Virus record (IMG/VR): IMGVR_UViG_3300009507_000020
Location: 1 to 59,620 of that record
From: a virus
Taxonomy: Duplodnaviria; Caudoviricetes
Reading direction: 5' to 3' (one strand)
DNA length: 59,620 nt
Each line of letters begins with the position of its first letter. Position 1 is the first letter of the stretch. Below the pieces are notes generated by a model. That model ran no database searches and was not told the DNA's origin. It was given only the letters and a program-made list of their open reading frames with translations. Both the position numbers and the translations under genes were made by a program. Below are positions 43,522 through 59,620 of the stretch, in pieces.

Positions 43522-43531
43522 AGGGACAAAA

Positions 43532-46500
43532 ATGGCAACTACATTTACATCTGCGACGTTAAGTGGTTCTTATGATGACGATCTCGATCAAGATAAGGGA
43601 TTTCATCAAATACTATTTAACAGTGGTAGGGCACTTCAAGCACGAGAGTTAACTCAACTTCAAAGTCTGATCTATCAAGAGATGGGTCGTTTTGGACGTA
43701 ACATCTTTAAAGAAGGTGCAGCGGTTAGTTCTGGTGGAATGGCAATCAACGCAGCTCACGAGTTTGTCAAGATCGCATCTACTAATGCAGGTTCTGCATT
43801 TGCAAACATTCCTGTCGGTACGGTTTTCAGAGATGACGTTACTGGTCTTGAAGCCAGAGTACTTGAAGTACAACCACGAAACACAGGTTTGGGTTTCACA
43901 TATGATACTTTATATGTCCAATACATCAATACTGATCAATCTGTTGTTGCCGGTCTACCTGATCGTTTCGGTGACAAAGTTACTCTGTTTGATCAGTCCG
44001 GTTCTGGTTACGAGTTAGTAACTGAGACTCCTAATGCATCTGGTCGTGGCGTACGGTTTGACGTTGCAACAGGTGACTTCTTTGTACTAGGTCGATTTGT
44101 AAAAGCAACTACACAAAACCTCATTATAAGTCCATACACCCAATCCTTTACTGGGGCGATTGGATTTAAGGTTGTTCAAGAAGTTATATCTGTATCAGAT
44201 GATGCGTCCTTGTATGATAACAATGGTGGTGCTGTTAATACTGCATCACCCGGCGCAGATCGATATAGAATAAGATTGATTCTATGTGATCATTCAACTA
44301 TCGCAAGCGACGAAACTTTCGTATTTCTTGCCAATGTCGAGAACTCAAAAATTGTTGAGGAAGTCGATGAGGGTGATGCATACAACAAGATTAACGAACT
44401 CATTGCACTACGTACCGAAGAAGAGTCGGGTGACTATATTGTCAACCCATACACGATTCACTTCGAAGATGAGGTTGCAGGTGATTCCTCTTTGGAATTG
44501 ATTGTATCGACCGGTAGTGCATATGTCAATGGTTATCGAGTAGATACTCCATCACCCGTTAAATTAAAAGTCCCACGTCCTCAGACTACAGACAACCGCA
44601 ACAACGACATTGTTCCTATTGAATACGGTAACTATTTTGTTGCAGATTCTGGTCGAGGTCTACCTAATCTGGATATGGCGACAGTCAATCTAAGCACGTC
44701 ACTGACAGATCCAAGTAGTAATACTATCGGTACTGCAAGAATACGTGCGGTAGAAAAAGGATCTACTCTTCCTAACAACGGAACGCACAAGATTTATGTC
44801 TTTGATATCAATGTCGACTCAGATAAAGACCTTACTGATATCAAGTCAATTGGTACTTCCACAACTAACTTATACAAGTTATCCACTGCGGTCAATGGTG
44901 CGGGAACAGACAGTGATGTGAAGTTGTTCAACACACAAGACAACTCCTTGTTGATGCCTTTGACTCAGAATAGACTCCAATCAATATCTGATATCGTTTT
45001 GAAAGTGCAACGACATGTTGGAAGTAAGACAGTTGCGTCAAGTAAGATTGACATCTCTTCTGTATTGGGTGCAGGCGAATCTTTTGTTGACACCAGTAAT
45101 TGGGTTGTTGCGTCTACTACTCGTGGTTTTATTCCACACACAGTCAATGCATCTAATGGTGAGATAACTCTCTCAGACGTTGCTGACGGTGTTGTTCTTG
45201 AAGTGTTGTACTATGTCCAGAAAACTGGTGCAGTACGTACCAAGACTGAATTGACTGGTATCACTGACACGTTGACCAAACAGACAGGATTTGACGTATA
45301 TAACGACGTTGCATACTGTTACTACGAGTTTGATCATGTTGATGTGACAGAACTAGACTCTGTGAGAGCAACTTTCTCTTCTGGTCTTGACATGTTCAAT
45401 AGTTTTATTTTGGACGATGGTCAGAGAGACAACTTCTATCAACGTGCACGTCTGATCCACAATGGGGAAGACAGTGCACCCAACAACTTGTATGTTAACT
45501 ATAAGAGATTGCGCCACAACAACGATGGTGACTTCTTTGCCGCGTCATCTTACAACACGATAAACTATAGGGATATACCTACTCACGTAAATCAGACTGG
45601 TAATGAAGTAAATCTATTTAATTACTTGGACTTCCGTTCTGATAATGACAATGGTACGTTTGCCAATATCAATTTCCTTCCTAAGAACGGTGACAATGTT
45701 ACCGCAGACATTAGTTACTACCTGCCCCGTGCAGATAAGTTATTGTTGACTCAAGAAGGTGAGTTGCAGTTGTTGATGGGTAACCAAGCAGCAGATCCAC
45801 AGTTCAAACCTACGCCAGAAAATGCGTTAGAGTTGTACAAGATAAAAATGAATCCTAATACGTTAAATGGTCAGGATCTATCTTTCGATCCAGTAGAACA
45901 TAGACATTATACTATGAAGGATATATCTAACCTTGAGGATAAGGTTGATGCATTATCAGAATCTACAGCTTTATCTATACTAGAGTTACGTAACCTTTTA
46001 AGTCCTTCTTTGGATAGTGCGGGAGAAGAAAGACTCGCGATTGGTAATCAATCAGACGATCAATCAGATCACGATACGTCAGACACTGAGAACGTAGATT
46101 ATTCTGCGTCACTAGATCCAGATGCCCAGATTATTTACCCTAAAGCGGCAGAAGAGAACATAAGACTTATGTTCAACAATTCATTGTCTACGGGTGTCAC
46201 TAAAATAGGTGACAACATATACTTGAACCATGATAGCGCAGAGTGGGCATTCCAGTCACTTGCATCTGATCATATTAAAGTCAACCCGTTTGGACATGTA
46301 CAGAATACCGGTACTCTCAAGATGTCACCGTCTTCTGACGAATGGAAAGATACTCAGACAAATGCAAACCGTGCAATTGAAGGTTCTGAAAACTTATCCA
46401 CCAATCAAGCGTTTTTATGGAACTCTTGGCAGTGGAACTGGCAGGGTCGTGTCGGTCTTATAACTCGATCGATTAAGTCCGCTGCAATTCGCAAACGATA

Positions 46501-48802
46501 CGCTGGTAGGACTGTCGATCTTGCACTCATTCCATTCATACGTTCACGTAAGGTCTTCTTCCACGCGAAGGGATTGAAACCCAATACTAGATTCACTCCA
46601 TTCTTTGATGGTATGAAAGTATCCGAGTGGTGTCGTGAAGAGTCGACGTTTGTTCGTTGGTCTGATCGTACCGATGGTTGGGGTAACCGTTATGGATGGA
46701 ACATTGCTGCTCACCCACAGGGATCTTCTGATTTAATCTCTGATGCAAACGGTGAGATCATTGGTTCCTACTTCATACCTTCTGTCCGTGCAGTTCGCGA
46801 AAAGGCAATTAAGAAGTGGGGTAAGAAAGCCGGTGCCAAGTACTTCACTCAACGTAGATTCCGTGCAGGTGTAAGAGAGTTCATGTTGCTAGACATTGAC
46901 AAACCCGATTGGGGTGAAGCAGGGTCTAAAGCATTCTGTTACTATGCAGCAATGGGTATCGCGATACACTCTTTGAATATTTGGAAGTATCTCCGTTATC
47001 CAGATTCCCCACATCCTTATTCATGGTTGAGTAAGAGGGCACAGACTCGCCTTACTAAAGAACAGAAGGAAAGACTGGACGCGGTATCTGCGGGTAATGT
47101 TTTGATAACAGAACCTAAAGTATCTGGTCGATTCGGTACCAATCAGATTCCATTAACTACAACAGAACTGCGTAACATTGACAACAAAAACACAATGTCT
47201 ACAGTTTTGTCAGACTACATTGGTGTGGATCTCAATCACCAAGCGTCTACTGAAGTTAATCCTATTGCACCACCTGAAAATCCATTGTCACAGACGTTTT
47301 ATGTCGACAACCCATATGGATTGGTATTGACCAAACTTCAGTTATACTTCCGTTCGAAAGATACGGGTAACCTTCCCGTGTCCATACACATACGTCCAGT
47401 AGAGAATGGTAAACCTTCTCAAAACATTATCGTGCCAGATTCTCATGTATTTAAGAATCCCGGCGATGTTGATGCGATTGGTACTACACCTATTCTCTCT
47501 ACTGTACAGTCTAGACCTACAACTTTTGAGTTTGATGAACCAATTCATCTACAACCTTGGAAGAGATATGCGATTGTAGTATCATCACAGTCAACTGAAT
47601 ATGAGTTGTTCAGTGCAACCGCAGGTAATCCTGTGTTAGGTTCTTCGGTCAAACGTGTAACTACACAACCAATTCCTGGCACTCTGTTCCTACCACAGAA
47701 CGGTACTAACTGGTTGGAGACTAAGAATCAAGACCTCATGTATCGTCTGTACCGTGCGAAGTTTAACCAAGGTGGTGGTTCTTTGATCTTGAACAACGAA
47801 GATCTTGCTCCTCGTGAGTTAGAGGACAATCCAATCTTAACTACTGCATTGTCTAATCGTGTATTTGTTAAACATATGTGTCACGGTCTGCGAGTAGGAG
47901 ATATTGCAAACCTAGACAGTGCGGAAGGATTCTTCGGTAACACTGCGGCAGACTTTAATGGTAACCACACAGTACAAGAAGTTGATGTACATGGTTATAC
48001 CATTGATGTTGACAGTGCAACGTTCTCTGGGTTCGGTGGTGGAGATAAGATTCGGTCTCAAGGTAACGTTGTCTTTACGACCGCAAATCTTATATTAGAG
48101 AATGCAATACCACGATCTACCTCAATTGATACATCCGCGAAGTTTACTTCTGGATCAAACATTAGTGGTGGAGAAACTCGATTCGTGCAAGATGCACAAT
48201 ATGCACGTATCACCCCTGAAGAAAATACTACTTTTGATTCTCCGAAAACAATCTATAATGCTGCATCCGAAACTTTAAACCTAGGTGCGGGTGTGAGATC
48301 TGCATACTTTAAGGTTGATTTCAAGTCTGGAGATGATTATGTTTCACCGATCATCGACCTACAGAGATCTTCTTTGGTTGCTGCGGGTTACTGTATAGAT
48401 GATCCTTCAATAACACCTCACCTATATCCAGTCTCAGAGACTGCACCTACTGGTGGTACTACTGCATCGAAGCACATTACTAAAGTAGTTGTGTTGCCGG
48501 AACCTGCTGTTGGTATTGATGCACGTGGCGATTGTTGGTTACCTGACAGTTCAGACGTAGACTTCTACTATAGAACTGCACAAGCGGACGAAGATATTAC
48601 TCTCCAACCTTGGATACTTCAAGAACCGAGAGAACCTCTTCCACGGAGAAATGACGGTAACTATAACCGTGCAGAGTATCTTGCGGGTGGTCAGAATGGT
48701 ACATTGAAACCATTCAATCAAGCGCAAACTAAATGGGTTATGAAAGCAGGTAGTATTGCCCCCGCAATTAAAAACCTTGCGATATCGTTTTTAGCGCATT
48801 AA
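43532..48802 (+). CDS. large virion structural protein (VrlC/DUF4815-like)
   Basis: YDDD......F..ILF..GRALQARELTQLQS, PGADRY, RT.EESGDY, AYV.GY, PFIRSR, PLSQTF; start placed at ATG 43532. Confidence 0.85.
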   Translation: MATTFTSATLSGSYDDDLDQDKGFHQILFNSGRALQARELTQLQSLIYQEMGRFGRNIFKEGAAVSSGGMAINAAHEFVKIASTNAGSAFANIPVGTVFRDDVTGLEARVLEVQPRNTGLGFTYDTLYVQYINTDQSVVAGLPDRFGDKVTLFDQSGSGYELVTETPNASGRGVRFDVATGDFFVLGRFVKATTQNLIISPYTQSFTGAIGFKVVQEVISVSDDASLYDNNGGAVNTASPGADRYRIRLILCDHSTIASDETFVFLANVENSKIVEEVDEGDAYNKINELIALRTEEESGDYIVNPYTIHFEDEVAGDSSLELIVSTGSAYVNGYRVDTPSPVKLKVPRPQTTDNRNNDIVPIEYGNYFVADSGRGLPNLDMATVNLSTSLTDPSSNTIGTARIRAVEKGSTLPNNGTHKIYVFDINVDSDKDLTDIKSIGTSTTNLYKLSTAVNGAGTDSDVKLFNTQDNSLLMPLTQNRLQSISDIVLKVQRHVGSKTVASSKIDISSVLGAGESFVDTSNWVVASTTRGFIPHTVNASNGEITLSDVADGVVLEVLYYVQKTGAVRTKTELTGITDTLTKQTGFDVYNDVAYCYYEFDHVDVTELDSVRATFSSGLDMFNSFILDDGQRDNFYQRARLIHNGEDSAPNNLYVNYKRLRHNNDGDFFAASSYNTINYRDIPTHVNQTGNEVNLFNYLDFRSDNDNGTFANINFLPKNGDNVTADISYYLPRADKLLLTQEGELQLLMGNQAADPQFKPTPENALELYKIKMNPNTLNGQDLSFDPVEHRHYTMKDISNLEDKVDALSESTALSILELRNLLSPSLDSAGEERLAIGNQSDDQSDHDTSDTENVDYSASLDPDAQIIYPKAAEENIRLMFNNSLSTGVTKIGDNIYLNHDSAEWAFQSLASDHIKVNPFGHVQNTGTLKMSPSSDEWKDTQTNANRAIEGSENLSTNQAFLWNSWQWNWQGRVGLITRSIKSAAIRKRYAGRTVDLALIPFIRSRKVFFHAKGLKPNTRFTPFFDGMKVSEWCREESTFVRWSDRTDGWGNRYGWNIAAHPQGSSDLISDANGEIIGSYFIPSVRAVREKAIKKWGKKAGAKYFTQRRFRAGVREFMLLDIDKPDWGEAGSKAFCYYAAMGIAIHSLNIWKYLRYPDSPHPYSWLSKRAQTRLTKEQKERLDAVSAGNVLITEPKVSGRFGTNQIPLTTTELRNIDNKNTMSTVLSDYIGVDLNHQASTEVNPIAPPENPLSQTFYVDNPYGLVLTKLQLYFRSKDTGNLPVSIHIRPVENGKPSQNIIVPDSHVFKNPGDVDAIGTTPILSTVQSRPTTFEFDEPIHLQPWKRYAIVVSSQSTEYELFSATAGNPVLGSSVKRVTTQPIPGTLFLPQNGTNWLETKNQDLMYRLYRAKFNQGGGSLILNNEDLAPRELEDNPILTTALSNRVFVKHMCHGLRVGDIANLDSAEGFFGNTAADFNGNHTVQEVDVHGYTIDVDSATFSGFGGGDKIRSQGNVVFTTANLILENAIPRSTSIDTSAKFTSGSNISGGETRFVQDAQYARITPEENTTFDSPKTIYNAASETLNLGAGVRSAYFKVDFKSGDDYVSPIIDLQRSSLVAAGYCIDDPSITPHLYPVSETAPTGGTTASKHITKVVVLPEPAVGIDARGDCWLPDSSDVDFYYRTAQADEDITLQPWILQEPREPLPRRNDGNYNRAEYLAGGQNGTLKPFNQAQTKWVMKAGSIAPAIKNLAISFLAH

Positions 48803-49084: not shown

Positions 49085-52000
49085 ATGTCATACAGACCCC
49101 TAAAAAGTTTATCTGGTGGTGAACTTCAAGAGTTTACTCTTGCAGATGAAGACTCAATCGCCTATCAGGCGGGACTTCACCTTGCGGGTATGGATTCTTC
49201 TGACACGTCTGCATTGTCTAGATACGATCAAGGTAGTGAGTTAGTAGGTACATTCAATAACACCTTCTTTGATGAAACATCCAACGACGACCCTCTGGTT
49301 CTTTCTACAGAGTTTCAGGTTGTATCGACTTCCAATGTCACTAACGGTGTGCATACTATCACTTCTTCGGGTGGTGGTTTACCTCAAACCGTTTATATTG
49401 GTGACACATTAGAACTCAACATTGTACTGAACGCAACTGAAGTCAATGGTGGCGGGTTCGAAACTATTTCTGTTAACGCGACCACTGCGGGTAGCGCAAC
49501 ATTCACCGAGACTATTAATGGAACTCCTGCCCCAACTGTTATTGCGGGTGATGGTTCTATTACATGGCAAGACTTTGTAGATCCCACACTTAGTGGTGAG
49601 TATCGAGGAATCTATCGTTACACGTTGACTTCGACTGGGTCTATCAACATCTCTGTGCAATCAAACACGGTTGACCAAAACAACTCAACTAATGCGGCAG
49701 ATCTAGCGGTAACACTACCCACTATTGAAGTACAAGAGACACGTCCGCCTAGTAGTGTGGAAACTGAAACAGATTTGTTCCAGAGTCCTGCTGCGGATCT
49801 TCCTACTGGTGTTTTAAAAAGAAACCCAATATACTGGCAGACTCAACCACAGGGTCTAAAAGAAATGTCCGACGCAGAGTTGGATATTCTTTGTACTAAG
49901 TTTGCCCGTAAGATTGTAAACAACGAACTTCCTGGCACCTTCCGTCTATCAGATGGTTCGCCTGGATCTGGTTATTTTAAGTTTATTGAAAACATGTTCA
50001 CCGATACGAGAGGTGACGGTACCAATAACTATTATCATATATGGATGAAGGGTTCAAGTACCCCTATTCCCGCTGATCGAAAACCGATGTCCATCTTCCG
50101 TTATAACGGTGTCTTTGCTGGTTTGAAACAAATGTCAGACCCCGAGATACAGTATACCTTTGGTGAACGTGTAAAACAGTTGATCATGACTACTGGTATT
50201 GGTCAGTATCAACTAAGGTCATCATCTCAGGGTACACCAACTTCGCTTGGTACATGGGCAGCACGTGGCACGGCACTTGACACTAGAAGAACATTCATTG
50301 ATGATCCCGGCTATACTGGTCAGGCACCATTTGATACAAATTATACTGGTTCTTACACCCCAGATTACAATACCACTTTCGTTGGTAACTACGAACAGAA
50401 CTATTCATCTGAGTTCGTCGGTAATTACATAGGTTCGTTTATCTCTTTATACACTGGTGACTATGCAGAAGGTTATACCGGTGCGTATGAGAGCGATTTT
50501 GCAAAGAATTACTCCGGTAACTTTGAAAAGACATACGTCGACAATGTCTATTCGGGTAACTTTACACTAGGTTATACTGGTGATTATACGGGTGCAGATG
50601 TAACAGAACAGTTTTCCAACGTATATACTGGTACAGATGTAAGTGAAAACTACTCTTCAATCTATGTTGAAGAAGAATATACAGGTAACTACGGGTCTGA
50701 CTATACAGGTGAATATGAAGGTGATTTTAGTTCTACCTTTCTTGCAAACTATGCAGACCAAGAATACATCTCCGACTACGAAGCCATCTTTACTGGTGAC
50801 TACCAGTCAATATACACCTCACAGTATACTGGAGAGTACGAAGCACTTCTATACGAAACTTCATACAGTGAAGATTTTGTTACAAACTATTTGACTGATT
50901 TCGTTAGAGATTACACCGGTAACTATACTGGTGATTACGAAAGAACAGATGTCACAACCTTTACAGGTGAGTATGCAGGTGACACTCAAGAAACTTACAC
51001 AGGTGATTACACTGGTACGATCGTTGAGTTGTATACCGGTGAATACGTACGTCAGATCTCAGAGACTTACACCGGTGAGTATGGACGTGTTGACGAAGAG
51101 TTGTACACTGGTGATTACGAAGGTGATATCACAGAGACTTATACCGGAGACTATACCCGTGAAACGCCTGTGGTTTATACTGGCGATTACGAACGTGCAG
51201 ATCCTGAAGTCTACACTGGTAACTATAACTCTGCGATAGAAGAACAGTACACCGGAGATTACGAGAGAACTCAAGAAGACAGTTACACTGGATTGTATTC
51301 AGGTGATATACAAGAAGACTACACCGGAGATTACGAGAGAGAAGACGATGAGATCTATGAAGGTCAATACGTTCGTGAGATCCCAGAGAACTACACCGGT
51401 GAATATACTTCAGAAATCATCGAGATTTATAGTGGCAATTACGAGAGAACCCAAGTAGACACTTACACGGGTGATTACGAACGTGCAGATCCTGACACAT
51501 TTACAGGCGAATATGGTCGTATAGACGAGACTAGTTACACCGGTGATTATGAGAGAGCTGACTCAACTTTATTTGCTGGTGCATATGAGGGTGATGTTCT
51601 AGAACCCTACACTGGTGAATACGGTGGTACTATTTTAGAAACATACTCCGGTGATTATACTGGTGAAGTGCCTGAAGAATATATTGGATCTTATATTGGA
51701 TTGAATCAACGCACTTTCTCGGGTAACTATACCGGTATTCCTACAGAACAATACACTGGTATCTATTCTGGTGGTGTTTCTGAAACATATAGTTCTCTAT
51801 ACACTGGTGAGGCACTCGAAGACTACTCTGGAGATTACACAGGTGAGGCACTCGAAGACTACACTGGAGATTATACTGGTGAGATTGCAGAAGACTACAC
51901 CGGTGAGTATGAGTCTCAAATTGCAGAAGACTACACCGGTGATTATGAAGGTATTATTGATGAAACCTATACCGGCAACTATACTGGTGAGATCTCAGAA

Positions 52001-55000
52001 AATTATACTGCACAATATACTGGTGAAATAGAAGAACCGTACATCGGTGAATATACTGGTGCGATCGCAGAAAACTATACTGGCCCTTACGAAGGTATCA
52101 TCATTGAACCTTATACCGGTGAATATACCGGTGAAGTTGCAGAGGGTTACACTGGCGATTATGGTGGTGAAGCACTAGAGACTTACACTGGAGATTATAC
52201 TCGTGTTACTCTTGTCGACTACTCGGGTAACTACGAACGTACAGACGTTGAGAACTATGCCGGTAATTACGAAAGAACCCAAGTAGACACATACACCGGC
52301 GAATATGGTCGTACCACCGAAACCACATATACTGGGGACTACGAAAGAAACCAAGTAGACGTATACACTGGTAACTATGAACGTGTACAAACAGACGGAT
52401 TTACGGGTGACTACGAACGTGTGCAGGTAGACGTATACACAGGTAACTATGTGCGAGATGACGGCACTACGTTCTCTGGTGATTACACAGGTGCGCCTGG
52501 CGAGAATTACTCCGGTGATTATACTGGTGCTCCCGCAGAACCTTACTCAGGTGACTATGAAAGAGCAGATCCAACTAATTTTACTGGTGATTACGGTGGC
52601 GATGTAGTTGAAAACTATACTGGTTCCTATACACGTACTCAAGCAGATTCTTACTCTGGCAATTATACAGGTGCTCCCGCAGAAACTTATACTGGTGACT
52701 ATGAACGTGATCAGACCGATCCATACACCGGTAACTATACAGGTTCAATAGAAGAAGGGTATACCGGAAACTATGATCGGACTGAAATAGAACCATACAC
52801 CGGTGATTACATAGGTGAAGTTTTACAGACCTACACTGGTAACTATAACGTGGGTTATGTGGGTACCTACGTAGGTAACTACACGGGTGTTGCAATAGAA
52901 GAATATACTGGTGATTATACTGGTGCACCCGTAGAGAACTATCAGGGTCAATATGCTGGTACTACGCTAGAAACCTATACTGGTAACTATACTGGCGTTC
53001 CTACCGAACCTTACACTGGTGGATATGCTGGTGATATTATTGAAACTTACACTGGTGATTATACAGGTGCTCCTGCTACTCCTTTCACAGGAAACTATAC
53101 TGGTGCGCCTGGTGAGAACTACTCTGGCGATTATACCGGTATTCCTGTTGAACCTTATACTGGTGGGTATCAAGGTGTTGTTGGTGAGAACTACACAGGT
53201 AACTATACCGGATCCCCCGCAGAGAATTACACTGGTAACTACACTGGTGCTCCCGCAGAGAACTACACTGGTGAATATACAGGTGCGGTTGCAGAAACAT
53301 ACACCGGTGATTATGAAGGTGGTGCGTTAGAAACCTACACCGGTAACTATCAACGTATTCAAGTAGAAACGTATAGTGGTAACTACACACGTATTCAAGC
53401 AGACACTTACACTGGTAACTACACACGTGTTCAAACTGATGCCTACACTGGTAACTACACTCGTGATGCAAGTGAAACATACACTGGTAACTATGCAGGT
53501 GCAGTACAAGAGACTTATACCGGTAATTATGAAGGCGGTGCAGCAGAAACTTATACCGGTGACTACACTGGTGGTGCAGCAGAACCATATTCGGGAAATT
53601 ATACCGGTGTACCCACAGAGAGTTATACTGGCCCTTATACTGGACAGGTAACAGAAAACTACACCGGAAATTATGAAGGTCAGGTCACTGAAAGTTACAG
53701 TGGTGATTATGCGGGTGCAGTACAAGAGACCTATACTGGTGGTTATGAACGTTCTCAAGTAACACCATTTACGGGTAACTATGTAGGCGAAGTACAAGAA
53801 ACGTACACGGGTTCTTACACACGTACAACTAACGAAGCATATACTGGAGATTTCGCTCGAGATGAGTTAGAAGAATATGTTTCTTCCTACACTCGTGTTG
53901 GGGGTGCATCATACATCCAAGCCGGTGGATCATATATTGGGAACATTACAGGGAGTCAGCTCTCAATAAGACACCACGGTGGTTCATCTTGGCATGTAAT
54001 GAAGTCAGGTTCGAGTACGATCACCTATTCTGCATTATATACTGGGACAGTAATACAAAGAATAACCTCTGGTGGCACTGTCGTCACAGAAGTTTCGACC
54101 ACTAGTGGCCCAGTCAATGGAACCTTTACTGCCAACCAAGGCGACAAGATTGTTTCAAATGGGCCAGATTATCCTATTCATATATTCGTTCAGAATTACG
54201 GTCAAGCAGTTGTACCCGAATCATTAGCGGGCGAAGACTTTCAGGGTTATATGAATAGATATGAACCCGGCACTCTCCACTTCTATTCTAAACATGAAGC
54301 TCGTGTAAAGATCTTCAATCCTGGCAATGCGAATGGTCGTGGATACGATGACCAATCCAACCTATTAATGGAGTTTGAGAAGTGGCACTCACTTGGTGCA
54401 GGAGCTCTGCCAGGTTTTGCTCAGAACGGTGACGGTAACAGTCGTATCATTGATGACTCTCCGAAAGGTCAGGATATTGTCTGGGATGTATCTAACCAAG
54501 ACGCAGACTCAAACGCAGACGGTGGTTGGAACGCTTCTCAAGTATCGATTGATTCAACTAAAAAGTATCGTTTTTCTACATGGGTAAGACGTAAAGTGAA
54601 GGGTAATGGTCACTTTTACTTGGGTACCCGTGCATTCAATAGTGGTGGTACTGTCCTTGCCATGCCACGAAGAGTGGCTGGATCTACAACTACAAACCCG
54701 TACTTTGAAGTCAACGGCAACTACAACGAATGGGGTGGGTCTTCAACTGAGTGGTTCCTTGTTGTTGGTCACGTATGGCCCGAAGGATCTGGCACCGGTG
54801 CGGTAGATACTGAATCTGGTATCTACAACACGTCTGGTACAAAAGTTGATACCATTGAACAAGATTACTTATGGCCAACAGGAACAGTAAAAACTTACCA
54901 CCGTGCTTTCTTGTACTACTCGACGGACACCACTACTAATCAACAGTTCTGGGAACCTCGTCTTGACGACACTACTAATCCTAGTTGTCCCTCTGTAGCG

Positions 55001-58000
55001 GACATGATTAGTTATGGTACTTGGGATAGTGTAGTTGAATTGCCTGGCGGTACTAACACTGTTACTTCACACACAATGAGTAGTACGACCGGATTCTTTA
55101 ACTTTCACTCAAACAGACCTATTATTGCTACTTCTGAAGGTACGGGTAGTATTGATTTATCGATGGTACCACCTACTTCTAATGTTGGTGAAAGGATTTA
55201 TCATCGTCGTGCGTACACTGCTGGTAGTAGATCAAATACTGCTGCGAGTGGAATAGACAACGGTAATCAGGTTTCGTTTCACGACTCTTCTCGTATGTCA
55301 CACACTGAGATTGGTGATGGGGCTGGTGGTAATAACTGTTGGGGTTTACCAGAAAGATTTATGTCTAACACATACTCATGGGGTCAAGCACTTCGTGATT
55401 ATGTGATTGTAATGCCATCTACTGGTTATGTTAGGATTTCAAGTTGGAATGGTTCTGCTTGGACAGAACACGTGACACACTTCAGTTCTGGTTCTGCGGA
55501 CAGTCCTACTTATATATTGCGTACTGGTAACAACGGATTCAACACAACCGGTAGCACTGTCGCAGGTAACACCACTAACTTTAACTCGAATACTTTGTGG
55601 AAGTTTGAAGGTACAACCAATTTCTATCTTGCTGTCAACGATCAGAGTGACGACGAAGAAACCTTATTGGGTTGGCAGTCTTCTCTTGAAGACGCTGTTT
55701 ACACTACAAATCAATTCACCGGTAACTATACGCGTGATGCACAAGAGACATACAGCGGTGACTATGCAGGTGGAGTTCAAGAAACCTATACCGGTAACTA
55801 TACCCGTGTTCAAACAAACACATTTGCTGGCAACTATACCGGAGCCCCCGCAGAACCTTACACAGGCACTTATGAAGGTGTGATTACCGAACCTTATACC
55901 GGTAGTTATGCTGGTGCAGTACAAGAAGGTTATACTGGCCCATATACTGGTGCGCCTGGCGAGAACTATGTAGGTTCTTATACAGGTGTAATTGCAGAAA
56001 ACTACGTCGGTGGTTATGATCGTGCTGCACAACAAGGATATACCGGTACATACCAAGGCGCAGTCCAAGAGACTTACACCGGTAACTATGCACGTGTTCA
56101 ACTACAATCATACACAGGTAACTATACTGGCGCGCCTGCTGAAAACTACGTAGGATCATACGCACGTGATCAAGTAACACCATACACAGGTAACTATACT
56201 GGTGCTCCCGCAGAGAACTATGTAGGTAACTATACTGGTGCGCCTGCTGAGAACTATGCAGGTAACTATGCACGTACTCAAGTGACACCATTTACCGGTG
56301 ATTATGCAGGTGATGTACAAGAAACTTATTCAGGTAACTACCAACGTGATCAAACCAATGTTTATTCTGGTGACTATGCGGGTAATCCAGGCGAGAACTA
56401 TGTCGGTTCTTACGGTGGTTCAGTCCAAGAAACCTACACTGGTACATATCAAGGTGCGGTTCAAGAGACATACAGCGGTAACTATGCCGGTGGAGTTCAA
56501 GAAACCTATACCGGTAACTACCAACGTGATCAAACCAATGTTTACACGGGTAACTATGCACGTACTCAAGTGACACCATTTACCGGTGACTATGCACGTG
56601 ATCAACTACAACCATATACTGGTTCTTACGGTGGTGCAGTTCAAGAGACCTATACAGGTAACTACACTGGTGCTCCCGCTGAGAACTATGTGGGATCATA
56701 TTCACGTTCTGCACAAGAAACCTATACCGGTAACTACGCTGGTGCACCCGTAGAAAACTATGTTGGTTCCTATACTCGTGTTCAAGGAACAACATATACC
56801 GGTAACTACACTGGTGCACCCGCAGAAAACTATGTAGGTAGTTATGTCCGTGATGCACAACAAGGATATACTGGTACCTATCAGGGTGTTTCGGGTGAAG
56901 CATACACCGGAGATTATGGTGGTACTGCGTCAGAACTCTTCACCGGATCTTACGTAGGTAGTTATGTTGCTGTCGGAAATAGCACCCCCGCAGGTGGTTT
57001 TGTGGGTGCTGGCGGATATGAAAGTGGAGGTAGTGGTGGTACTAACTATCAAGGCACTTATGCTGGTCTCACTTCAGGTGTTTTTGAAGGGGATCTGCCC
57101 GGTGGGCCAGGCGAACCAGAGATTTACTTGGGGACAAGTAATGTAAACTATACCGGTAGTTATATTGGTGGAGAAACTGGCACAAACACTTACGTTGGCC
57201 CCGCTGTAACATACACCGGAAACTTCGTCGGTGCTGCACAACCCTATAATGCGGCTAATTATGTGAGCAACGATGGGCCACAGTATACAGCTTTTCAACA
57301 CGAGTGGAAGGTGTCGACAGCGGGTGGGTCTAACAACATCTTTATCTATTGGCCAAATGGTCTTTGGGGTACTACAACTGGTACTTTCTCGACTACATCC
57401 ACAACGATTAATGGACAAAGCTTCACTCGTGGTAGTTTTGTGGGTTTCGCTAGTGGTTTTGTTTCTTATTATTTGACCGCGACCAATGTATCGTTTGGTG
57501 CTACTTACGTTGGTGGTGGTGGTACTTACGTCGACAATTTCGTTTCAGGTACCGAGACAACTTACAACAGTGGTGGTGCAACCTACGTAGGTAACTATCA
57601 AGGTGCCTATCAAGGCACTTATGCTGGTGGTTACCAACGTATTCAAGCAACACCTTTCATCGGTGACTACGTACGTGATTCACAACAAGGATATACAGGA
57701 ACGTATCAAGGTGCGGTTCAAGAAACCTATACCGGTAACTATGCAAGAGACCAAGCTGCTGCGTACACGGGTAACTATCAAGGTGATGTACAAGAAACTT
57801 ATGCAGGTAACTATGGACGTACACAACTAGAGAATTATGTCGGTTCTTACGGTGGTGCAGTCCAAGAGACTTATACCGGTAACTATGCACGTGCTCAAGC
57901 AGAAAACTATGTAGGTAGTTACTCTCGTTCTGCACAACAGGCATACACCGGTAACTACGTTGGTGTTCCTCTTGAAACATACTCTGGTGACTATGCAGGT

Positions 58001-59620
58001 AATCCTGGCGAGAACTATACAGGTAACTACACTGGTGCTCCCGCAGAGAACTATGTAGGATCATATGCACGTACACAACTACAACCATACGTAGGGTCAT
58101 ATGTCCGTGATGCACAACAATCTTATACCGGTAGTTACGCTCGTTCTGCACAAGAAACATACACCGGTAATTATGCACGTGTTCAAATACAACCATATAC
58201 AGGTAACTACACAGGTGCACCCGCAGAAAACTATGTTGGTTCCTATTCACGTACACAAATTGATACCTATGCAGGCAACTATGCAGGTGCTCCCGCAGAG
58301 AACTATGCTGGTAACTATACACGTATTGCAGCAGAGACCTATACCGGTAACTATACACGTGATCAAGTCGATACGTACGGCGGTAACTATGCCGGTGGAG
58401 TACAAGAAACATACACGGGTAACTATGCACGTGATCAGGTAGACACTTACACTGGCGATTATGCGGGTTCTCCTGCCGAGAACTATGTAGGTAGTTATGT
58501 CCGTGATGCACAACAAGGATATACTGGATCTTATGTGGGTGTTATTAGTGAAACATACACCGGAAACTATGACCGCGCTGCACAAGAGACTTATACCGGT
58601 AACTACACACGTACTCAAGAAGAGGGTTACACTGGTAGTTACGACCGTACTGAGAATCAATCCTACACGGGTAATTATGTACGTGCTTCACAAGAGACAT
58701 ACGCTGGTAACTATACACGGGAACAAGTAGAATCCTACACGGGTGACTACACAGGTGCACCCGCAGAAAACTATGTTGGTTCATATGCACGTACTCAAGT
58801 AACACCTTATACTGGTACCTATCAGGGAGTTGTTGCAGAAAACTTCACCGGAGACTATACTGGTGCGGTGGACGAAACGTATGTTGGTAACTATGCAGGT
58901 ACTGTTTCTGTTCAGTTTGCTGGTCAGTACGAAGGCGCGGTTCAAGAAAGTTATACAGGATCGTACGAACGTGATGACGCGGCTGCTTACGGTGGTAACT
59001 ATGTAGGTGTCGTTTCAGAGAGTTACACTGGTAGTTATGCCCGTACACAGATTCAAACCTATACTGGTAACTACACACGTATTCAAGCAGAGAATTATGC
59101 GGGTAACTACGAACGAACCCAAGAACAGGGGTTCACTGGTGACTACGAGAGAACTCAGGTTGAAAACTATGTTGGTAACTACCAGAGAACTCAAGCAGAG
59201 AATTATGTAGGTAACTATGTACGTATTCAAGCAGAGAATTATGTAGGTAGTTATTCACGCACCCAAGCAGAGAATTATGTTGGTAACTACACTGCGGACG
59301 CACTAGAAACGTACACTGGTGATTATACTGGTTCTCCTGCCGAGAACTATACTGGTGAATATACTGGTGCACCCGTAGAAAACTACTCAGGGAACTATAC
59401 TGGTGCGCCTGGCGAGAACTATACGGGTAACTATACTCGTGTTGACGGAACTCAGTTTACTGGTAACTATACTCGTATTCAATCAGAGGGTTATACTGGC
59501 AACTATGAACGTGATCAAACCGATGTCTATACCGGTAACTATACTCGTGATCAAGTAGATACCTTTACCGGTAGTTATACACGTGACTCCGGAGAAACAT
59601 TCACTGGTGACTACGCGAGA
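49085..59620 (+). CDS. giant Tyr/Thr/Gly repeat virion fibre-like protein, 3'-truncated (at least 3512 aa), not in ORF track
   Basis: Hand-translated frame from ATG 49085 (MSYRPLKSLSGGELQEF...) has no stop up to the last codon (...ETFTGDYAR). Confidence 0.93.
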   Translation, partial: MSYRPLKSLSGGELQEFTLADEDSIAYQAGLHLAGMDSSDTSALSRYDQGSELVGTFNNTFFDETSNDDPLVLSTEFQVVSTSNVTNGVHTITSSGGGLPQTVYIGDTLELNIVLNATEVNGGGFETISVNATTAGSATFTETINGTPAPTVIAGDGSITWQDFVDPTLSGEYRGIYRYTLTSTGSINISVQSNTVDQNNSTNAADLAVTLPTIEVQETRPPSSVETETDLFQSPAADLPTGVLKRNPIYWQTQPQGLKEMSDAELDILCTKFARKIVNNELPGTFRLSDGSPGSGYFKFIENMFTDTRGDGTNNYYHIWMKGSSTPIPADRKPMSIFRYNGVFAGLKQMSDPEIQYTFGERVKQLIMTTGIGQYQLRSSSQGTPTSLGTWAARGTALDTRRTFIDDPGYTGQAPFDTNYTGSYTPDYNTTFVGNYEQNYSSEFVGNYIGSFISLYTGDYAEGYTGAYESDFAKNYSGNFEKTYVDNVYSGNFTLGYTGDYTGADVTEQFSNVYTGTDVSENYSSIYVEEEYTGNYGSDYTGEYEGDFSSTFLANYADQEYISDYEAIFTGDYQSIYTSQYTGEYEALLYETSYSEDFVTNYLTDFVRDYTGNYTGDYERTDVTTFTGEYAGDTQETYTGDYTGTIVELYTGEYVRQISETYTGEYGRVDEELYTGDYEGDITETYTGDYTRETPVVYTGDYERADPEVYTGNYNSAIEEQYTGDYERTQEDSYTGLYSGDIQEDYTGDYEREDDEIYEGQYVREIPENYTGEYTSEIIEIYSGNYERTQVDTYTGDYERADPDTFTGEYGRIDETSYTGDYERADSTLFAGAYEGDVLEPYTGEYGGTILETYSGDYTGEVPEEYIGSYIGLNQRTFSGNYTGIPTEQYTGIYSGGVSETYSSLYTGEALEDYSGDYTGEALEDYTGDYTGEIAEDYTGEYESQIAEDYTGDYEGIIDETYTGNYTGEISENYTAQYTGEIEEPYIGEYTGAIAENYTGPYEGIIIEPYTGEYTGEVAEGYTGDYGGEALETYTGDYTRVTLVDYSGNYERTDVENYAGNYERTQVDTYTGEYGRTTETTYTGDYERNQVDVYTGNYERVQTDGFTGDYERVQVDVYTGNYVRDDGTTFSGDYTGAPGENYSGDYTGAPAEPYSGDYERADPTNFTGDYGGDVVENYTGSYTRTQADSYSGNYTGAPAETYTGDYERDQTDPYTGNYTGSIEEGYTGNYDRTEIEPYTGDYIGEVLQTYTGNYNVGYVGTYVGNYTGVAIEEYTGDYTGAPVENYQGQYAGTTLETYTGNYTGVPTEPYTGGYAGDIIETYTGDYTGAPATPFTGNYTGAPGENYSGDYTGIPVEPYTGGYQGVVGENYTGNYTGSPAENYTGNYTGAPAENYTGEYTGAVAETYTGDYEGGALETYTGNYQRIQVETYSGNYTRIQADTYTGNYTRVQTDAYTGNYTRDASETYTGNYAGAVQETYTGNYEGGAAETYTGDYTGGAAEPYSGNYTGVPTESYTGPYTGQVTENYTGNYEGQVTESYSGDYAGAVQETYTGGYERSQVTPFTGNYVGEVQETYTGSYTRTTNEAYTGDFARDELEEYVSSYTRVGGASYIQAGGSYIGNITGSQLSIRHHGGSSWHVMKSGSSTITYSALYTGTVIQRITSGGTVVTEVSTTSGPVNGTFTANQGDKIVSNGPDYPIHIFVQNYGQAVVPESLAGEDFQGYMNRYEPGTLHFYSKHEARVKIFNPGNANGRGYDDQSNLLMEFEKWHSLGAGALPGFAQNGDGNSRIIDDSPKGQDIVWDVSNQDADSNADGGWNASQVSIDSTKKYRFSTWVRRKVKGNGHFYLGTRAFNSGGTVLAMPRRVAGSTTTNPYFEVNGNYNEWGGSSTEWFLVVGHVWPEGSGTGAVDTESGIYNTSGTKVDTIEQDYLWPTGTVKTYHRAFLYYSTDTTTNQQFWEPRLDDTTNPSCPSVADMISYGTWDSVVELPGGTNTVTSHTMSSTTGFFNFHSNRPIIATSEGTGSIDLSMVPPTSNVGERIYHRRAYTAGSRSNTAASGIDNGNQVSFHDSSRMSHTEIGDGAGGNNCWGLPERFMSNTYSWGQALRDYVIVMPSTGYVRISSWNGSAWTEHVTHFSSGSADSPTYILRTGNNGFNTTGSTVAGNTTNFNSNTLWKFEGTTNFYLAVNDQSDDEETLLGWQSSLEDAVYTTNQFTGNYTRDAQETYSGDYAGGVQETYTGNYTRVQTNTFAGNYTGAPAEPYTGTYEGVITEPYTGSYAGAVQEGYTGPYTGAPGENYVGSYTGVIAENYVGGYDRAAQQGYTGTYQGAVQETYTGNYARVQLQSYTGNYTGAPAENYVGSYARDQVTPYTGNYTGAPAENYVGNYTGAPAENYAGNYARTQVTPFTGDYAGDVQETYSGNYQRDQTNVYSGDYAGNPGENYVGSYGGSVQETYTGTYQGAVQETYSGNYAGGVQETYTGNYQRDQTNVYTGNYARTQVTPFTGDYARDQLQPYTGSYGGAVQETYTGNYTGAPAENYVGSYSRSAQETYTGNYAGAPVENYVGSYTRVQGTTYTGNYTGAPAENYVGSYVRDAQQGYTGTYQGVSGEAYTGDYGGTASELFTGSYVGSYVAVGNSTPAGGFVGAGGYESGGSGGTNYQGTYAGLTSGVFEGDLPGGPGEPEIYLGTSNVNYTGSYIGGETGTNTYVGPAVTYTGNFVGAAQPYNAANYVSNDGPQYTAFQHEWKVSTAGGSNNIFIYWPNGLWGTTTGTFSTTSTTINGQSFTRGSFVGFASGFVSYYLTATNVSFGATYVGGGGTYVDNFVSGTETTYNSGGATYVGNYQGAYQGTYAGGYQRIQATPFIGDYVRDSQQGYTGTYQGAVQETYTGNYARDQAAAYTGNYQGDVQETYAGNYGRTQLENYVGSYGGAVQETYTGNYARAQAENYVGSYSRSAQQAYTGNYVGVPLETYSGDYAGNPGENYTGNYTGAPAENYVGSYARTQLQPYVGSYVRDAQQSYTGSYARSAQETYTGNYARVQIQPYTGNYTGAPAENYVGSYSRTQIDTYAGNYAGAPAENYAGNYTRIAAETYTGNYTRDQVDTYGGNYAGGVQETYTGNYARDQVDTYTGDYAGSPAENYVGSYVRDAQQGYTGSYVGVISETYTGNYDRAAQETYTGNYTRTQEEGYTGSYDRTENQSYTGNYVRASQETYAGNYTREQVESYTGDYTGAPAENYVGSYARTQVTPYTGTYQGVVAENFTGDYTGAVDETYVGNYAGTVSVQFAGQYEGAVQESYTGSYERDDAAAYGGNYVGVVSESYTGSYARTQIQTYTGNYTRIQAENYAGNYERTQEQGFTGDYERTQVENYVGNYQRTQAENYVGNYVRIQAENYVGSYSRTQAENYVGNYTADALETYTGDYTGSPAENYTGEYTGAPVENYSGNYTGAPGENYTGNYTRVDGTQFTGNYTRIQSEGYTGNYERDQTDVYTGNYTRDQVDTFTGSYTRDSGETFTGDYAR
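50924..53911 (+). repeat. coding repeat block A: 83 units of 36 bp / 12 aa
   Basis: Strict 36-nt register from YTGDYERTDVTT to YVSSYTRVGGAS. Confidence 0.93.
55715..56938 (+). repeat. coding repeat block B: 34 units of 36 bp / 12 aa
   Basis: FTGNYTRDAQET ... YTGDYGGTASEL. Confidence 0.93.
57620..59620 (+). repeat. coding repeat block C: 56 units (last one partial) of 36 bp / 12 aa
   Basis: YAGGYQRIQATP ... FTGDYAR, running off the window. Confidence 0.93.

What the first reader, a model, noticed from the sequence alone, without database searches (positions are those of the whole stretch)
53120..59620. A protein that is its own reverse complement: Gly/Arg binary code in 12-aa repeats mirrors across a central apex (56 of 56 pairs)
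Seen: each unit Y-T-G-x-Y-x-[G|R]-x5 has G or R at position 7. Block B (55715-56938) reads RGRGGGGGRGRGRGGRGRGGGGRRRGGRGRGRGG. The first 34 units of block C (from 57620) read RRGRGRGRRGGGRRRRGRGRRGRGRGRRRRRGRG, which is B reversed with G and R swapped (34/34). Units C35-C56 (GGGRGRRRRRRRAGGGRRRRRR) are likewise the reversed swap of A62-A83 (GGGGGGRRRRGGGGGGGRGRRR), 22/22 with one Ala standing in for Gly. The pattern is aperiodic; chance for independent 50:50 units is about 2^-56, somewhat higher allowing for runs. It is not a DNA inverted repeat. Inference: the chain folds back at 56939-57619 into a very long antiparallel hairpin in which each Arg packs against a Gly on the opposite arm, and the aperiodic order fixes a unique register, like base pairing. 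I know of no described protein family with such a code, but could not search.
Basis: partly seen in the sequence, partly recalled or inferred. Interest (0 to 1): 0.98.

Follow-up and report, generated by a model that had tools for sequence, protein, structure and literature searches.

The report
Phage fibre with mirrored Arg/Gly code
A giant tail-fibre-like protein of an uncultured marine T4-like phage is built of 12-residue units whose Gly-or-Arg choice in the first half is the exact reversed opposite of that in the second half, and the two halves evolve together, which points to a chain folded back on itself with a pairing rule reminiscent of base pairing.

Summary
A machine recount gives 34 of 34 and 21 of 22 strict Gly:Arg mirror pairs. 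The last pair is Ala:Arg. 200,000 run-preserving permutations reached at most 50 of 56. There is no DNA inverted repeat.

The window's gene is cut by the contig end, so I fetched three full-length homologues (4476-4484 aa). Each has 83+34 units before the apex and exactly 117 after it. 108-109 of 117 pairs are strict G:R, and none is G:G or R:R. A blind prediction from the window's unseen-partner units hit 53 of 57 letters.

The arms co-evolve:
- one G:R to R:G co-switch;
- one pair overwritten on both arms by copies of another pair;
- unit divergence correlated between mirror partners (r 0.62-0.75, against 0.37 or less at shifted pairings).

The protein belongs to a large unannotated phage family with a shared N-domain, Tyr/Gly/Arg arms and a C-terminal YTLYVR strand. 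In part of that family an Arg:Gly antiparallel register starts exactly at the two conserved ends.

Best reading: a fold-back antiparallel fibre with Arg-into-Gly complementarity. No structure could be obtained, so hairpin versus antiparallel oligomer stays open.

The parts
49085..59620 (+). Giant fibre-like ORF, 3512 codons, with its 3' end cut by the contig end. Full-length homologues have 4476-4484 aa.
49085..50335 (+). N-terminal globular domain shared by the whole family. It ends in the conserved Y-Q-L-R-S-S ... G-T-W stretch.
   Evidence: BLASTP of the P0116 N-domain hits the window protein at residues 260-411, E 1.5e-22. C48C1 matches at 44% identity. No Pfam family matches.
50336..50923 (+). 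N-side flank of irregular aromatic-x-x-x tetrads without Arg. Its mirror counterpart is the tetrad zone after C117 in the homologues.
50924..53911 (+). Block A, 83 units of 12 aa. A62-A83 pair with C35-C56 in the window, and A1-A61 pair with C57-C117 in the homologues. The irregular unit A54 mirrors the irregular units C63/C64.
53912..55714 (+). 601-aa globular insert in one arm only (a side knob). The opposite arm runs on without a break from C34 to C35. Its central part is related to the only non-repeat domain between the arms of small family members (seen by eye in the sequences of P0010 and P0055) and to Vibrio phage virion proteins.
   Evidence: no Pfam or PDB match
55715..56938 (+). Block B, 34 units. 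It is the mirror complement of C1-C34 at 34 of 34 positions.
56939..57619 (+). Apex domain of 227 aa (219-227 aa in homologues), rich in Gly and Tyr with a conserved core. It is the turning point of the mirror.
57620..59620 (+). Block C: units C1-C55 and the first 7 codons of C56. Homologues continue to C117, then a tetrad flank and the C-terminal ...E-T-Y-T-L-Y-V-R strand.

Best explanation
The ORF encodes a very long fibre of an uncultured marine T4-like myovirus. It is placed after the baseplate wedge genes. In its homologues it is followed by a gene like those for tail-fibre assembly proteins and by a tail fibre gene.

The chain runs out through blocks A and B, turns at the apex domain and runs back through block C. 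Unit k of the outward arm therefore lies antiparallel beside unit 118-k of the return arm. The C-terminal YTLYVR strand comes back to the end of the N-terminal domain.

Each unit is most likely an extended beta segment. Its odd positions (Tyr1, Gly3, Tyr5, Gly/Arg7) face the partner and its even positions face out. At position 7 a large Arg on one arm fills the space left by Gly (rarely Ser or Ala) on the other. It probably also reaches the Glu11 that is nearly invariant only in Gly-type units. Two Arg would clash and two Gly would leave a hole, so every change on one arm must be matched on the other.

The order of letters then makes the correct register by far the best one. The fibre may well be an oligomer of such hairpins, as phage fibres usually are.

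Shown here:
- the mirror complementarity;
- the equal unit numbers;
- the compensated changes;
- the partner-specific co-divergence;
- the anti-diagonal couplings.

Inferred:
- physical contact;
- pairing within one chain;
- the beta geometry;
- the salt bridge;
- the role in fixing the register.
For: Recount in the window: 55 strict G:R pairs and 1 A:R pair of 56, against a permutation maximum of 50.

Full-length homologues L002, L003 and L004:
- A has 83 units, B 34 and C 117.
- 109, 108 and 109 of 117 pairs are strict G:R.
- 6, 7 and 6 pairs are Arg facing Ser or Ala.
- 2 pairs are irregular, and they are mirrored irregular units.
- There are 0 G:G and 0 R:R pairs.

Blind prediction of C57-117 from the window's A1-61: 53 of 57 letters in each homologue. 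The single opposite letter in L002/L004 (C98) is compensated by their own A20.

Paired conversions:
- L003 A37 matches A71 at 34/36 nt and C81 matches C47 at 35/36 nt. The same comparisons give 21/36 and 23/36 in L002.
- L002/L004 A20 matches A7 at 33/36 nt, and C98 matches A67 at 31/36 nt.

Co-divergence of mirror partners:
- L002 vs L003: r 0.667 at the true pairing against 0.01-0.36 at shifts of 1-6 units, with 0 of 20,000 permutations as high.
- Window vs L002, L003 and L004 over the 55 visible pairs: r 0.75, 0.62 and 0.74 against 0.37 or less.

Conservation: position 7 changed in 3 of 234 units between L002 and L003, while positions 6, 8, 10 and 12 changed in 56-76. Positions 1, 3 and 5 are almost invariant.

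Unit types: Glu11 is present in 103 of 110 Gly-type units but 43 of 115 Arg-type units. Position 9 is V/P/I in Gly-type units and Q/D in Arg-type units.

Couplings between paired units, against a local-permutation null: mean z is 3.9 for i+j=12 and 3.0 for i+j=14, and at most 1.9 for every other sum. 7 of the top 14 couplings fall in those two classes, against 19 of 120 in the background (p 0.0014).

Sub-code in the window: 20 of the 22 Gly-type units with Pro9 face Arg-type units with Asn4, and none faces Ser4.

Family evidence:
- In 10 of 53 proteins the best Arg:Gly anti-diagonal lies exactly one residue from the sum of the conserved N-domain Trp and the C-terminal motif Leu. It lies within 2 residues of that register in 12 of 53, against 1 of 159 block-shuffled controls.
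- P0088 has an ungapped 167-residue antiparallel register with 26 R:G, 0 R:R and 0 G:G.
- The giant proteins' 7-to-7 register coincides with the second commonest register class, shift -6.

Context: baseplate genes lie upstream. A tail-fibre-assembly-like gene and a tail fibre gene lie downstream in L002.
Against: No structure supports it. The one AlphaFold2 model obtained (B23-34 + apex + C1-12, 4-sequence alignment) has mean pLDDT 38.6 and cannot be read.

The window itself lacks C57-C117, so more than half of the mirror is seen only in relatives.

Across the wider family two crude tests are weak or negative.
- Gapped hairpin scores exceed parallel scores in 45 of 70 proteins, with 3 equal and 22 lower.
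- The best ungapped anti-diagonal beats the best parallel diagonal in only 17 of 91 and 18 of 88 proteins. The parallel control is inflated by the 4-residue periodicity, and the known positive L002 scores only 207 against 146.

The register claim is softened by long like-letter runs: up to 15 Arg-type units in a row on C and up to 16 Gly/Ser-type units in a row on A/B. A wrong register also reaches 68%, with a run of 17 complementary pairs.

The three homologues form only two lineages plus the window, so the independent compensated events are few.

A fully extended two-arm fibre would be about 0.45 micrometre long, which is unusual for a phage fibre (inference from about 0.33 nm per beta residue, recalled).

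Nothing distinguishes a hairpin from antiparallel pairing between two chains.
Confidence: 0.7

Rival explanations
1. The same complementarity is formed between chains. Two or more copies lie antiparallel, head to tail, so that the A/B arm of one chain pairs with the C arm of another.
For: Every sequence result here is equally satisfied by pairing between identical chains. Phage fibres are usually oligomers (general knowledge).
Against: The mirror centre sits exactly at a compact apex domain, and in P0088 at a stretch of only 42 residues between the arms. The register runs from the conserved end of the N-domain to the conserved C-terminal strand. This closes a hairpin naturally and would put attachment domains at both ends of an antiparallel dimer. 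The only non-repeat domain of small members lies between the arms, where a distal receptor-binding tip is expected (seen by eye). None of this is proof.
Confidence: 0.12
2. The chain does fold back, but the units fold locally. Each 12-mer is one rung of a compact beta-solenoid, and two such rods pack side by side antiparallel, with position 7 at the interface. The fibre would then be about 56 nm long rather than about 0.45 micrometre.
For: Twelve-residue beta-helix coils exist (beetle antifreeze protein, recalled). The 12-mer is three tetrads, which would fit a three-sided coil. The length would be more ordinary. The unit-level mirror rule is satisfied.
Against: Couplings between paired units spread along an anti-diagonal across positions 2-12 rather than clustering at one interface position. 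Small family members whose arm lengths are not multiples of 12 keep an exact residue-by-residue i+j register over 167 residues. The conserved-odd, variable-even pattern fits a strand with one buried face.
Confidence: 0.1
3. The pattern is a by-product of DNA or RNA. It could come from an inverted duplication whose reverse complement happens to read as the other unit type, or from a nucleic-acid hairpin, since Gly GGT and Arg CGT differ by G versus C at the first base.
For: GGT (76) and CGT (61) are the commonest codons at position 7, and they differ by complementary bases.
Against: There is no long inverted repeat: the longest is 32 nt at 75% complementarity. 12 of the 80 Arg codons are AGA. 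Ser and Ala stand in for Gly opposite Arg. One complementary base per 36 nt cannot form a helix. The compensated changes are whole-unit replacements by different sequences on the two arms.
Confidence: 0.01
4. Chance, or an assembly artefact in a repetitive gene.
For: Repeats are prone to misassembly, and the window's contig ends inside the array.
Against: The permutation maximum is 50 against 56 observed. Four independent contigs from different collections carry the same architecture and the same code with 13-22% different residues. Near-identical DNA is held by 20 runs from 9 studies.
Confidence: 0.01

Closest known systems
Distal tip ('needle') of the phage T4 long tail fibre protein gp37
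   Same: It is a phage fibre in which the chain goes out to the tip and comes back. Domain D10 is made of residues 811-881 plus 1010-1026, and a strand Gly (G921) packs on an aromatic residue (F970) of another subunit (passages of PMC6957217 read). It is a beta-rich thin rod with the receptor-binding end at the turn.
   Different: There is no sequence relation (no PDB, Pfam or PHROG match). gp37 folds back over a few dozen residues and is held by iron bound to His-x-His. Here about 1400 residues per arm are paired, His is not among the common residues at any unit position, and pairing follows a two-letter complementary code that co-evolves.
Intramolecular antiparallel coiled-coil arms of SMC and Rad50 proteins (recalled, not tested)
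   Same: The topology is the same. The N- and C-terminal ends meet in one head, two long arms from one chain pair antiparallel, and a distinct domain sits at the turning point. Arm lengths must stay matched.
   Different: Those arms are alpha-helical heptads. Here the units are Tyr/Gly/Pro-rich 12-mers built of tetrads, predicted as strands (low-confidence model), with no heptad pattern.
Heterospecific coiled coils, whose partner choice and register are set by complementary charges and buried polar residues (recalled)
   Same: A repetitive scaffold carries a variable position whose complementary occupancy decides what pairs with what, and in which register.
   Different: The fold is different, the alphabet is different (size complementarity of Arg and Gly plus a likely Arg-Glu contact), and the scale is 117 successive pairs in one chain.
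Cross-strand aromatic-glycine and large-small pairs in antiparallel beta-sheets and steric zippers (recalled)
   Same: This is the likely physical basis. In ten family members the pairs facing each other are enriched for G:R (3.9x), Y:Y (3.8x), N:T (2.7x) and F:S (2.2x). Large residues sit opposite small ones.
   Different: Known cases are local pairs. Here the rule is applied digitally along hundreds of residues and is maintained by compensatory change.
A nucleic-acid hairpin
   Same: This is a formal analogy only. The second half is the reversed complement of the first, substitutions are compensated, and there is a loop and a bulge (the 601-aa insert).
   Different: It is a protein. The DNA has no such symmetry.

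Membership tests
Unannotated phage fibre family defined here (N-domain + Tyr/Gly/Arg arms + C-terminal YTLYVR strand) | Homologous N-terminal domain ending in Y-Q-L-R-S-S ... G-x-W | tested here: met
   The P0116 N-domain matches the window protein with E 1.5e-22, 34% over 169 aa. 97 of 156 fetched proteins share the domain.
Unannotated phage fibre family defined here (N-domain + Tyr/Gly/Arg arms + C-terminal YTLYVR strand) | Two arms of aromatic-x-(Gly/Arg)-x tetrads or 12-mers built from them | tested here: met
   HMMER search with B + apex + C1-34: 209 cluster representatives with E up to 0.001, 81 with E up to 1e-10.
Unannotated phage fibre family defined here (N-domain + Tyr/Gly/Arg arms + C-terminal YTLYVR strand) | C-terminal ...E-T-Y-T-L-Y-V-R-x-x end | tested here: inconclusive
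   The window's ORF is cut before its end. The motif is present in L002, L003 and L004 and in most complete family members.
T4-type long or short tail fibre proteins (gp34, gp36, gp37, gp12 families) | Sequence membership in the Pfam or PHROG families of these proteins, or similarity to their solved structures | tested here: not met
   0 Pfam families at E up to 0.1, 0 PHROGs and 0 PDB chains at E up to 1.
T4-type long or short tail fibre proteins (gp34, gp36, gp37, gp12 families) | His-x-His metal sites along the fold-back needle (gp37) | tested here: not met
   His is not among the six commonest residues at any of the 12 unit positions.
Phage tail fibre in the broad functional sense | Gene in the tail or baseplate module next to fibre and fibre-assembly genes | tested here: met
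   Baseplate hub and wedge genes lie upstream. In L002 a 116-aa match to an L-shaped tail fibre assembly PHROG and a tail fibre protein lie downstream. C48C1 has the same order.
Phage tail fibre in the broad functional sense | Presence in the virion and binding to a host receptor | not testable with these tools
   No cultured phage carries the gene. Only 1 of 50,697 GenBank phage records has a family member.
RHS/YD-repeat proteins | Match to the YD/RHS repeat models | tested here: not met
   No Pfam match.
Beta-solenoid with 12-residue coils | Each repeat forms one coil stacked in parallel on the next | not testable with these tools
   The only model obtained is unreliable.
SMC/Rad50-like antiparallel coiled coil | Alpha-helical heptad repeats in both arms | tested here: not met
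   The unit profile is Tyr/Gly/Pro-rich with period 4 and 12. No helix is predicted in the arms (low confidence).

The most novel reading that the evidence does not exclude
A protein counterpart of base pairing. A single chain of about 4500 residues folds into a beta hairpin up to about half a micrometre long. Its two arms recognise each other unit by unit through a digital Arg/Gly code, with a finer sub-code at flanking positions. The code is copied and repaired by paired gene conversions on both arms. The principle is used, with tetrads instead of 12-mers, by a whole unannotated family of marine phage fibres. It would give these phages an unusually long reach for hosts in dilute sea water. 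It would also give protein designers a natural, programmable register code for beta fibres.
Probability: 0.45. Interest if true: 0.95.

Novelty: categorically new. Interest (0 to 1): 0.9.

Why it matters
Long repetitive fibres face a register problem, because identical repeats can pair out of step. Here nature appears to solve it with a two-letter complementary code written into the repeats and kept intact by compensatory evolution. That behaviour is known for RNA helices and, in a looser form, for coiled coils. I found no report of it for beta-structured proteins in the searches I could run.

The finding defines a large phage protein family that has no Pfam, PHROG or PDB relative. It makes sharp, cheap predictions: which unit touches which, what happens if one arm is scrambled, and how long the fibre is.

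If it holds, it offers a ready-made design rule for self-registering beta fibres. It may also explain how uncultured marine myoviruses build extremely long host-capture fibres.

Tried and rejected
DNA-level causes: the inverted-repeat scan was negative and codon usage argues against them.

Structure prediction:
- AlphaFold2 of B23-34 + apex + C1-12 gave pLDDT 38.6 and pTM 0.26. It was not interpreted and not sent to fold search.
- Complex prediction of B23-34 against C1-12 did not complete. There is no verdict of any kind.

Closed or empty look-ups:
- The Atlas does not hold the window's insert domain. For P0116 it returned only viral hypothetical proteins.

Family-wide tests:
- Gapped hairpin against parallel alignment with an R:G scoring matrix. 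My first version halved the hairpin scores wrongly. The corrected version gave 45 higher, 3 equal and 22 lower of 70, Wilcoxon p 0.005.
- The positive control shows the method has little power: L002 scores 207 against 146.
- Ungapped maximum scans were negative: anti-diagonal better in 17 of 91 and 18 of 88 proteins. I give these as results against a universal rule.
- In one search my N-motif pattern matched nothing. I replaced it.
- The register W+L+1 used was read from the same proteins, so one search is not independent of it.

More giant homologues. None of the following gave a new one beyond L002-L004:
- the apex as a single protein in the viral collection: 1 locus;
- the insert alignment there: the same contig;
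- protein searches by N-domain, which found 2 proteins of 2503 and 2654 aa;
- protein searches by apex among shorter proteins, which found no apex-bearing fragment.

P0003/P0004: the outer 11 unit pairs give 6 strict G:R, 1 R:S, 2 S:S, 0 R:R and 0 G:G. The permutation p is 0.002 for strict pairs but 0.08 for Arg:small.

Extending the window:
- The last 57 nt have no exact match in the viral collection.
- Contigs of 4 runs laid on L003:12900-15934 cover the C98 site at about 96% identity. No difference is listed at its Arg codon, but 148 difference rows were not shown. So the prediction that the window's own C98 is Arg remains untested.

Other steps that led nowhere:
- The flanking tetrad zones pair in phase, but the register cannot be told apart from shifts of 4.
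- Supplements of papers were not opened.

Papers: PMC6957217 was read in passages. All others were seen only as search listings.
Full report
ANATOMY

The window is a 59.6-kb contig, and no more of the genome is held. It carries T4-type tail and baseplate genes: tube cap, hub with lysozyme, and wedge subunits. These are followed by an ORF from 49085 that is still open at the contig end after 3512 codons.

Its gp6-like wedge protein is 40% identical to that of the metagenomic phage C48C1. It is only 32-34% identical to those of Pelagibacter, Methylophilales and cyanobacterial myophages. The host is therefore unknown.

The ORF consists of:
- a 415-aa N-terminal domain;
- about 200 aa of irregular aromatic-x-x-x tetrads;
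- block A, 83 units of 12 aa;
- a 601-aa globular insert;
- block B, 34 units;
- a 227-aa apex;
- block C, of which 55 units and part of the 56th are present.

Position 7 of each unit is Gly or Arg, with 3 Ser, 1 Val and 1 Ala among 173 units.
- Reversing B and swapping the letters gives C1-34 at 34 of 34 positions.
- Doing the same to A62-83 gives C35-56 at 21 of 22 positions. The exception is Ala opposite Arg.
- No other offset exceeds 75%.
- 200,000 permutations that keep run lengths reach at most 50 of 56, with mean 30.5 and sd 4.0.

The DNA has no long inverted repeat. Twelve of the 80 Arg codons are AGA rather than CGN, so the symmetry is a property of the protein.

OUT-OF-SAMPLE TEST

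The mirror rule predicts what the missing part of the protein should look like. Searching with the apex found one viral-collection contig (L002) and two metagenome contigs (L003, L004). Each has a complete ORF of 4484, 4476 and 4484 aa. In the stretch aligned around the apex they differ from the window at 17-22% of residues.

In all three, A has 83 units, B has 34 and C has exactly 117. Pairing unit k of A+B with unit 118-k of C gives:
- 109, 108 and 109 strict Gly:Arg pairs of 117;
- 6, 7 and 6 pairs of Arg with Ser or Ala;
- two irregular pairs, in which an irregular unit on one arm (A54/A55) faces irregular units on the other (C63/C64);
- no Gly:Gly and no Arg:Arg pair.

The letters predicted for C57-117 from the window's own A1-61 are found at 53 of 57 positions in each homologue. 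In L003 the four misses are Ala or Ser. In L002 and L004 one miss is the opposite letter (C98), and there the partner A20 has switched too.

THE ARMS CO-EVOLVE

1. A20:C98 is Gly:Arg in L003, and the window also has Gly at A20. It is Arg:Gly in L002 and L004. At the DNA level L002's A20 is a 33/36-nt copy of A7, and its C98 is 31/36 like A67.

2. In L003 the pair A37:C81 has been replaced on both arms by copies of another mirror pair. A37 is 34/36 nt identical to A71, and C81 is 35/36 identical to C47. The same comparisons give 21/36 and 23/36 in L002. That donor pair is the one that uses Ala instead of Gly.

3. The number of substitutions per unit between L002 and L003 correlates between mirror partners with r 0.667. 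The value is 0.01-0.36 when the partner is shifted by 1 to 6 units, and none of 20,000 permutations reached 0.667. 9 of the 15 pair positions at which at least one unit has five or more changes have five or more changes in both partners.

4. The same holds for the window's own 55 visible pairs. Against L002, L003 and L004, r is 0.75, 0.62 and 0.74, compared with 0.37 or less at shifts. L002 and L004 are near-identical, so there are effectively three lineages.

RESIDUE-LEVEL SIGNALS

Between L002 and L003, positions 1, 3, 5 and 7 changed in 14, 0, 1 and 3 of 234 units. Positions 6, 8, 10 and 12 changed in 56-76. This alternation fits a strand with one buried face.

The two unit types differ in profile:
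- Gly-type units read Y-T-G-[DN]-Y-x-G-x-[VPI]-x-E-x, with Glu11 in 103 of 110.
- Arg-type units read Y-T-G-x-Y-x-R-x-[QD]-x-x-x, with Glu11 in 43 of 115.

I measured mutual information between positions of paired units, against a null that permutes partners only among six neighbours. It is concentrated on an anti-diagonal:
- mean z is 3.9 for i+j=12 and 3.0 for i+j=14, and at most 1.9 elsewhere;
- 7 of the 14 strongest couplings fall in these classes, against 19 of 120 expected (p 0.0014).

In the window, 20 of the 22 Gly-type units with Pro9 face Arg-type units with Asn4 and none faces Ser4. Position 10 Ala goes with Asn4 (19 pairs) and Gln with Ser4 (16 pairs). Part of this may be linked to neighbour rules within an arm, so I treat it as support, not proof, of a 7-to-7 antiparallel register.

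A LARGE UNANNOTATED FAMILY

The protein has no Pfam, PHROG or PDB relative. HMMER with B + apex + C1-34 against 1.84 billion cluster representatives found 209 proteins with E up to 0.001.

Of the 156 proteins fetched, 97 share the N-domain, including the window's. Most complete ones end in ...E-T-Y-T-L-Y-V-R. They range from 257 to about 4500 aa. Only one of 50,697 GenBank phage records has a member: C48C1, with a 3347-aa protein.

In small members the arms are tetrads of two kinds, aromatic-x-Gly-[ND] and x-Thr-Arg-x. P0088 shows an ungapped antiparallel register over 167 residues (239-405 against 448-614) with 26 Arg:Gly, no Arg:Arg and no Gly:Gly.

I used the invariant Trp at the end of the N-domain and the Leu of the C-terminal motif as anchors.
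- The best Arg:Gly anti-diagonal lies at exactly W+L+1 in 10 of 53 proteins of 494-1290 aa. It lies within 2 residues of that register in 12 of 53, against 1 of 159 block-shuffled controls.
- Over the outer 120 residues of all 56 anchored proteins, that register is the best of 49 in 16 proteins (7 uniquely), and a register 6 residues away is best in 9.
- Summed counts at the main register are 284 R:G, 33 R:R and 73 G:G. In-phase shifts of 4 to 16 residues give 175-225, 66-120 and 65-126.
- The giant proteins' 7-to-7 register is exactly the minus-6 class.

So in a good part of the family the two arms are matched to the residue from the two conserved ends. Those ends would then form the clasp of the hairpin.

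In ten exact-register proteins the facing pairs are enriched for G:R 3.9x, Y:Y 3.8x, N:T 2.7x, F:R 2.5x, D:T 2.4x and F:S 2.2x. These proteins were chosen by their R:G score, so only the non-R:G pairs are unbiased.

Against a universal rule, cruder tests without anchors are weak or negative, and their power is low.

MECHANISM

Most likely (0.7) the chain folds back at the apex, and the two arms run antiparallel as extended strands.
- The Tyr/Gly face is buried.
- Arg7 of one unit lies over Gly7 of its partner and probably reaches the partner's Glu11.
- The 601-aa insert is a bulge on one arm, because C34 and C35 are contiguous.
- The C-terminal strand returns to the N-domain.

The correct register gives 115 of 117 complementary pairs. 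All other registers with 40 or more overlapping units average 51%, with a maximum of 68%. The code would therefore disfavour slippage, although long like-letter runs make it locally tolerant.

If the arms are fully extended, they would span about 0.45 micrometre (1404 residues at about 0.33 nm; inference). If each unit were a 0.48-nm rung, the span would be about 56 nm.

The genes around it make it a baseplate-attached fibre. Near-identical DNA occurs in marine and estuary metagenomes of 9 studies.

RIVALS
- Pairing between chains rather than within one (0.12).
- Fold-back of two locally folded solenoid rods (0.10).
- DNA-level causes (0.01).
- Chance or misassembly (0.01).

COMPARISON WITH WHAT IS KNOWN

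The nearest known thing is the fold-back needle of T4 gp37, where the chain returns from the tip and a strand Gly packs on an aromatic residue (PMC6957217, passages). It is unrelated in sequence, short, and metal-stapled.

SMC/Rad50 arms share the topology but are coiled coils (recalled). Heterospecific coiled coils share the idea of a pairing code (recalled).

I found no report of a reversed-complement code in a beta-repeat protein in six full-text searches. Subscription journals and supplements were not covered.

LIMITS
- No usable structure prediction could be obtained.
- The window's own C57-C117 is unseen.
- Independent lineages of the giant form are few.

Noticed in passing
window 53912-55714; P0010, P0055, P0005: The central part of the 601-aa insert (the stretch around W-D-V-S-N-Q-D ... 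G-G-W-N) recurs, seen by eye in the fetched sequences, as the only non-repeat domain between the arms of small family members (P0010, P0055). It matches Vibrio phage 'virion structural proteins' at 30-36% identity. The fragment P0005 has a 12-mer block between two partial copies of the insert, so some relatives carry two or more such knobs.
   Followed up: partly
window 43502-48802 (+): The 1766-aa protein directly upstream of the giant ORF matches PHROG 358 (unknown function, E 6e-292). In C48C1 the neighbourhood holds large genes annotated 'baseplate wedge tail fiber protein connector' and 'hypothetical protein'. It may be the attachment site of the giant fibre.
   Followed up: no
L002 15600-20679: Downstream of the full-length homologue lie three small ORFs without PHROG match, a 116-aa match to 'L-shaped tail fiber protein assembly' (E 1e-14), a 280-aa unknown, and a tail fibre protein. 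C48C1 has the same order. The assembly-like protein is a candidate helper for folding the giant fibre.
   Followed up: partly
window 57657-58511 (-) and other minus-strand ORFs of 95-284 aa inside the repeats: Long open frames lie on the opposite strand within the repeat blocks. They are probably a side effect of the narrow codon repertoire of the repeats rather than genes.
   Followed up: no
window 56900-59620: Near-identical DNA (82-99% of sampled words) is held by 20 public runs from 9 studies of marine, plankton, seawater and estuary metagenomes, 2014-2025. Two rows may be the source sample. The phage is therefore widespread although uncultured.
   Followed up: partly
window 35458-37356 (+): A 632-aa protein in the tail module has a C-terminal amidase/endolysin-like part (PHROG 822, E 4e-35), next to the hub-lysozyme-like gene.
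   Followed up: no
whole window: There are no tRNA genes and no Rfam family at gathering score.
   Followed up: yes
P0003, P0004 (2503 and 2654 aa): In this more distant lineage Ser at position 7 faces Ser twice (S:S) in the outer arrays. In the giant proteins Ser always faces Arg. The alphabet may have a third, self-pairing letter.
   Followed up: partly
P0012 (661 aa), hit: An unrelated protein with about 25 exact 12-residue repeats containing G-G-Y-T-R scored E 2e-31 against the query. This warns that some of the 209 HMMER hits are repeat look-alikes and not family members.
   Followed up: no
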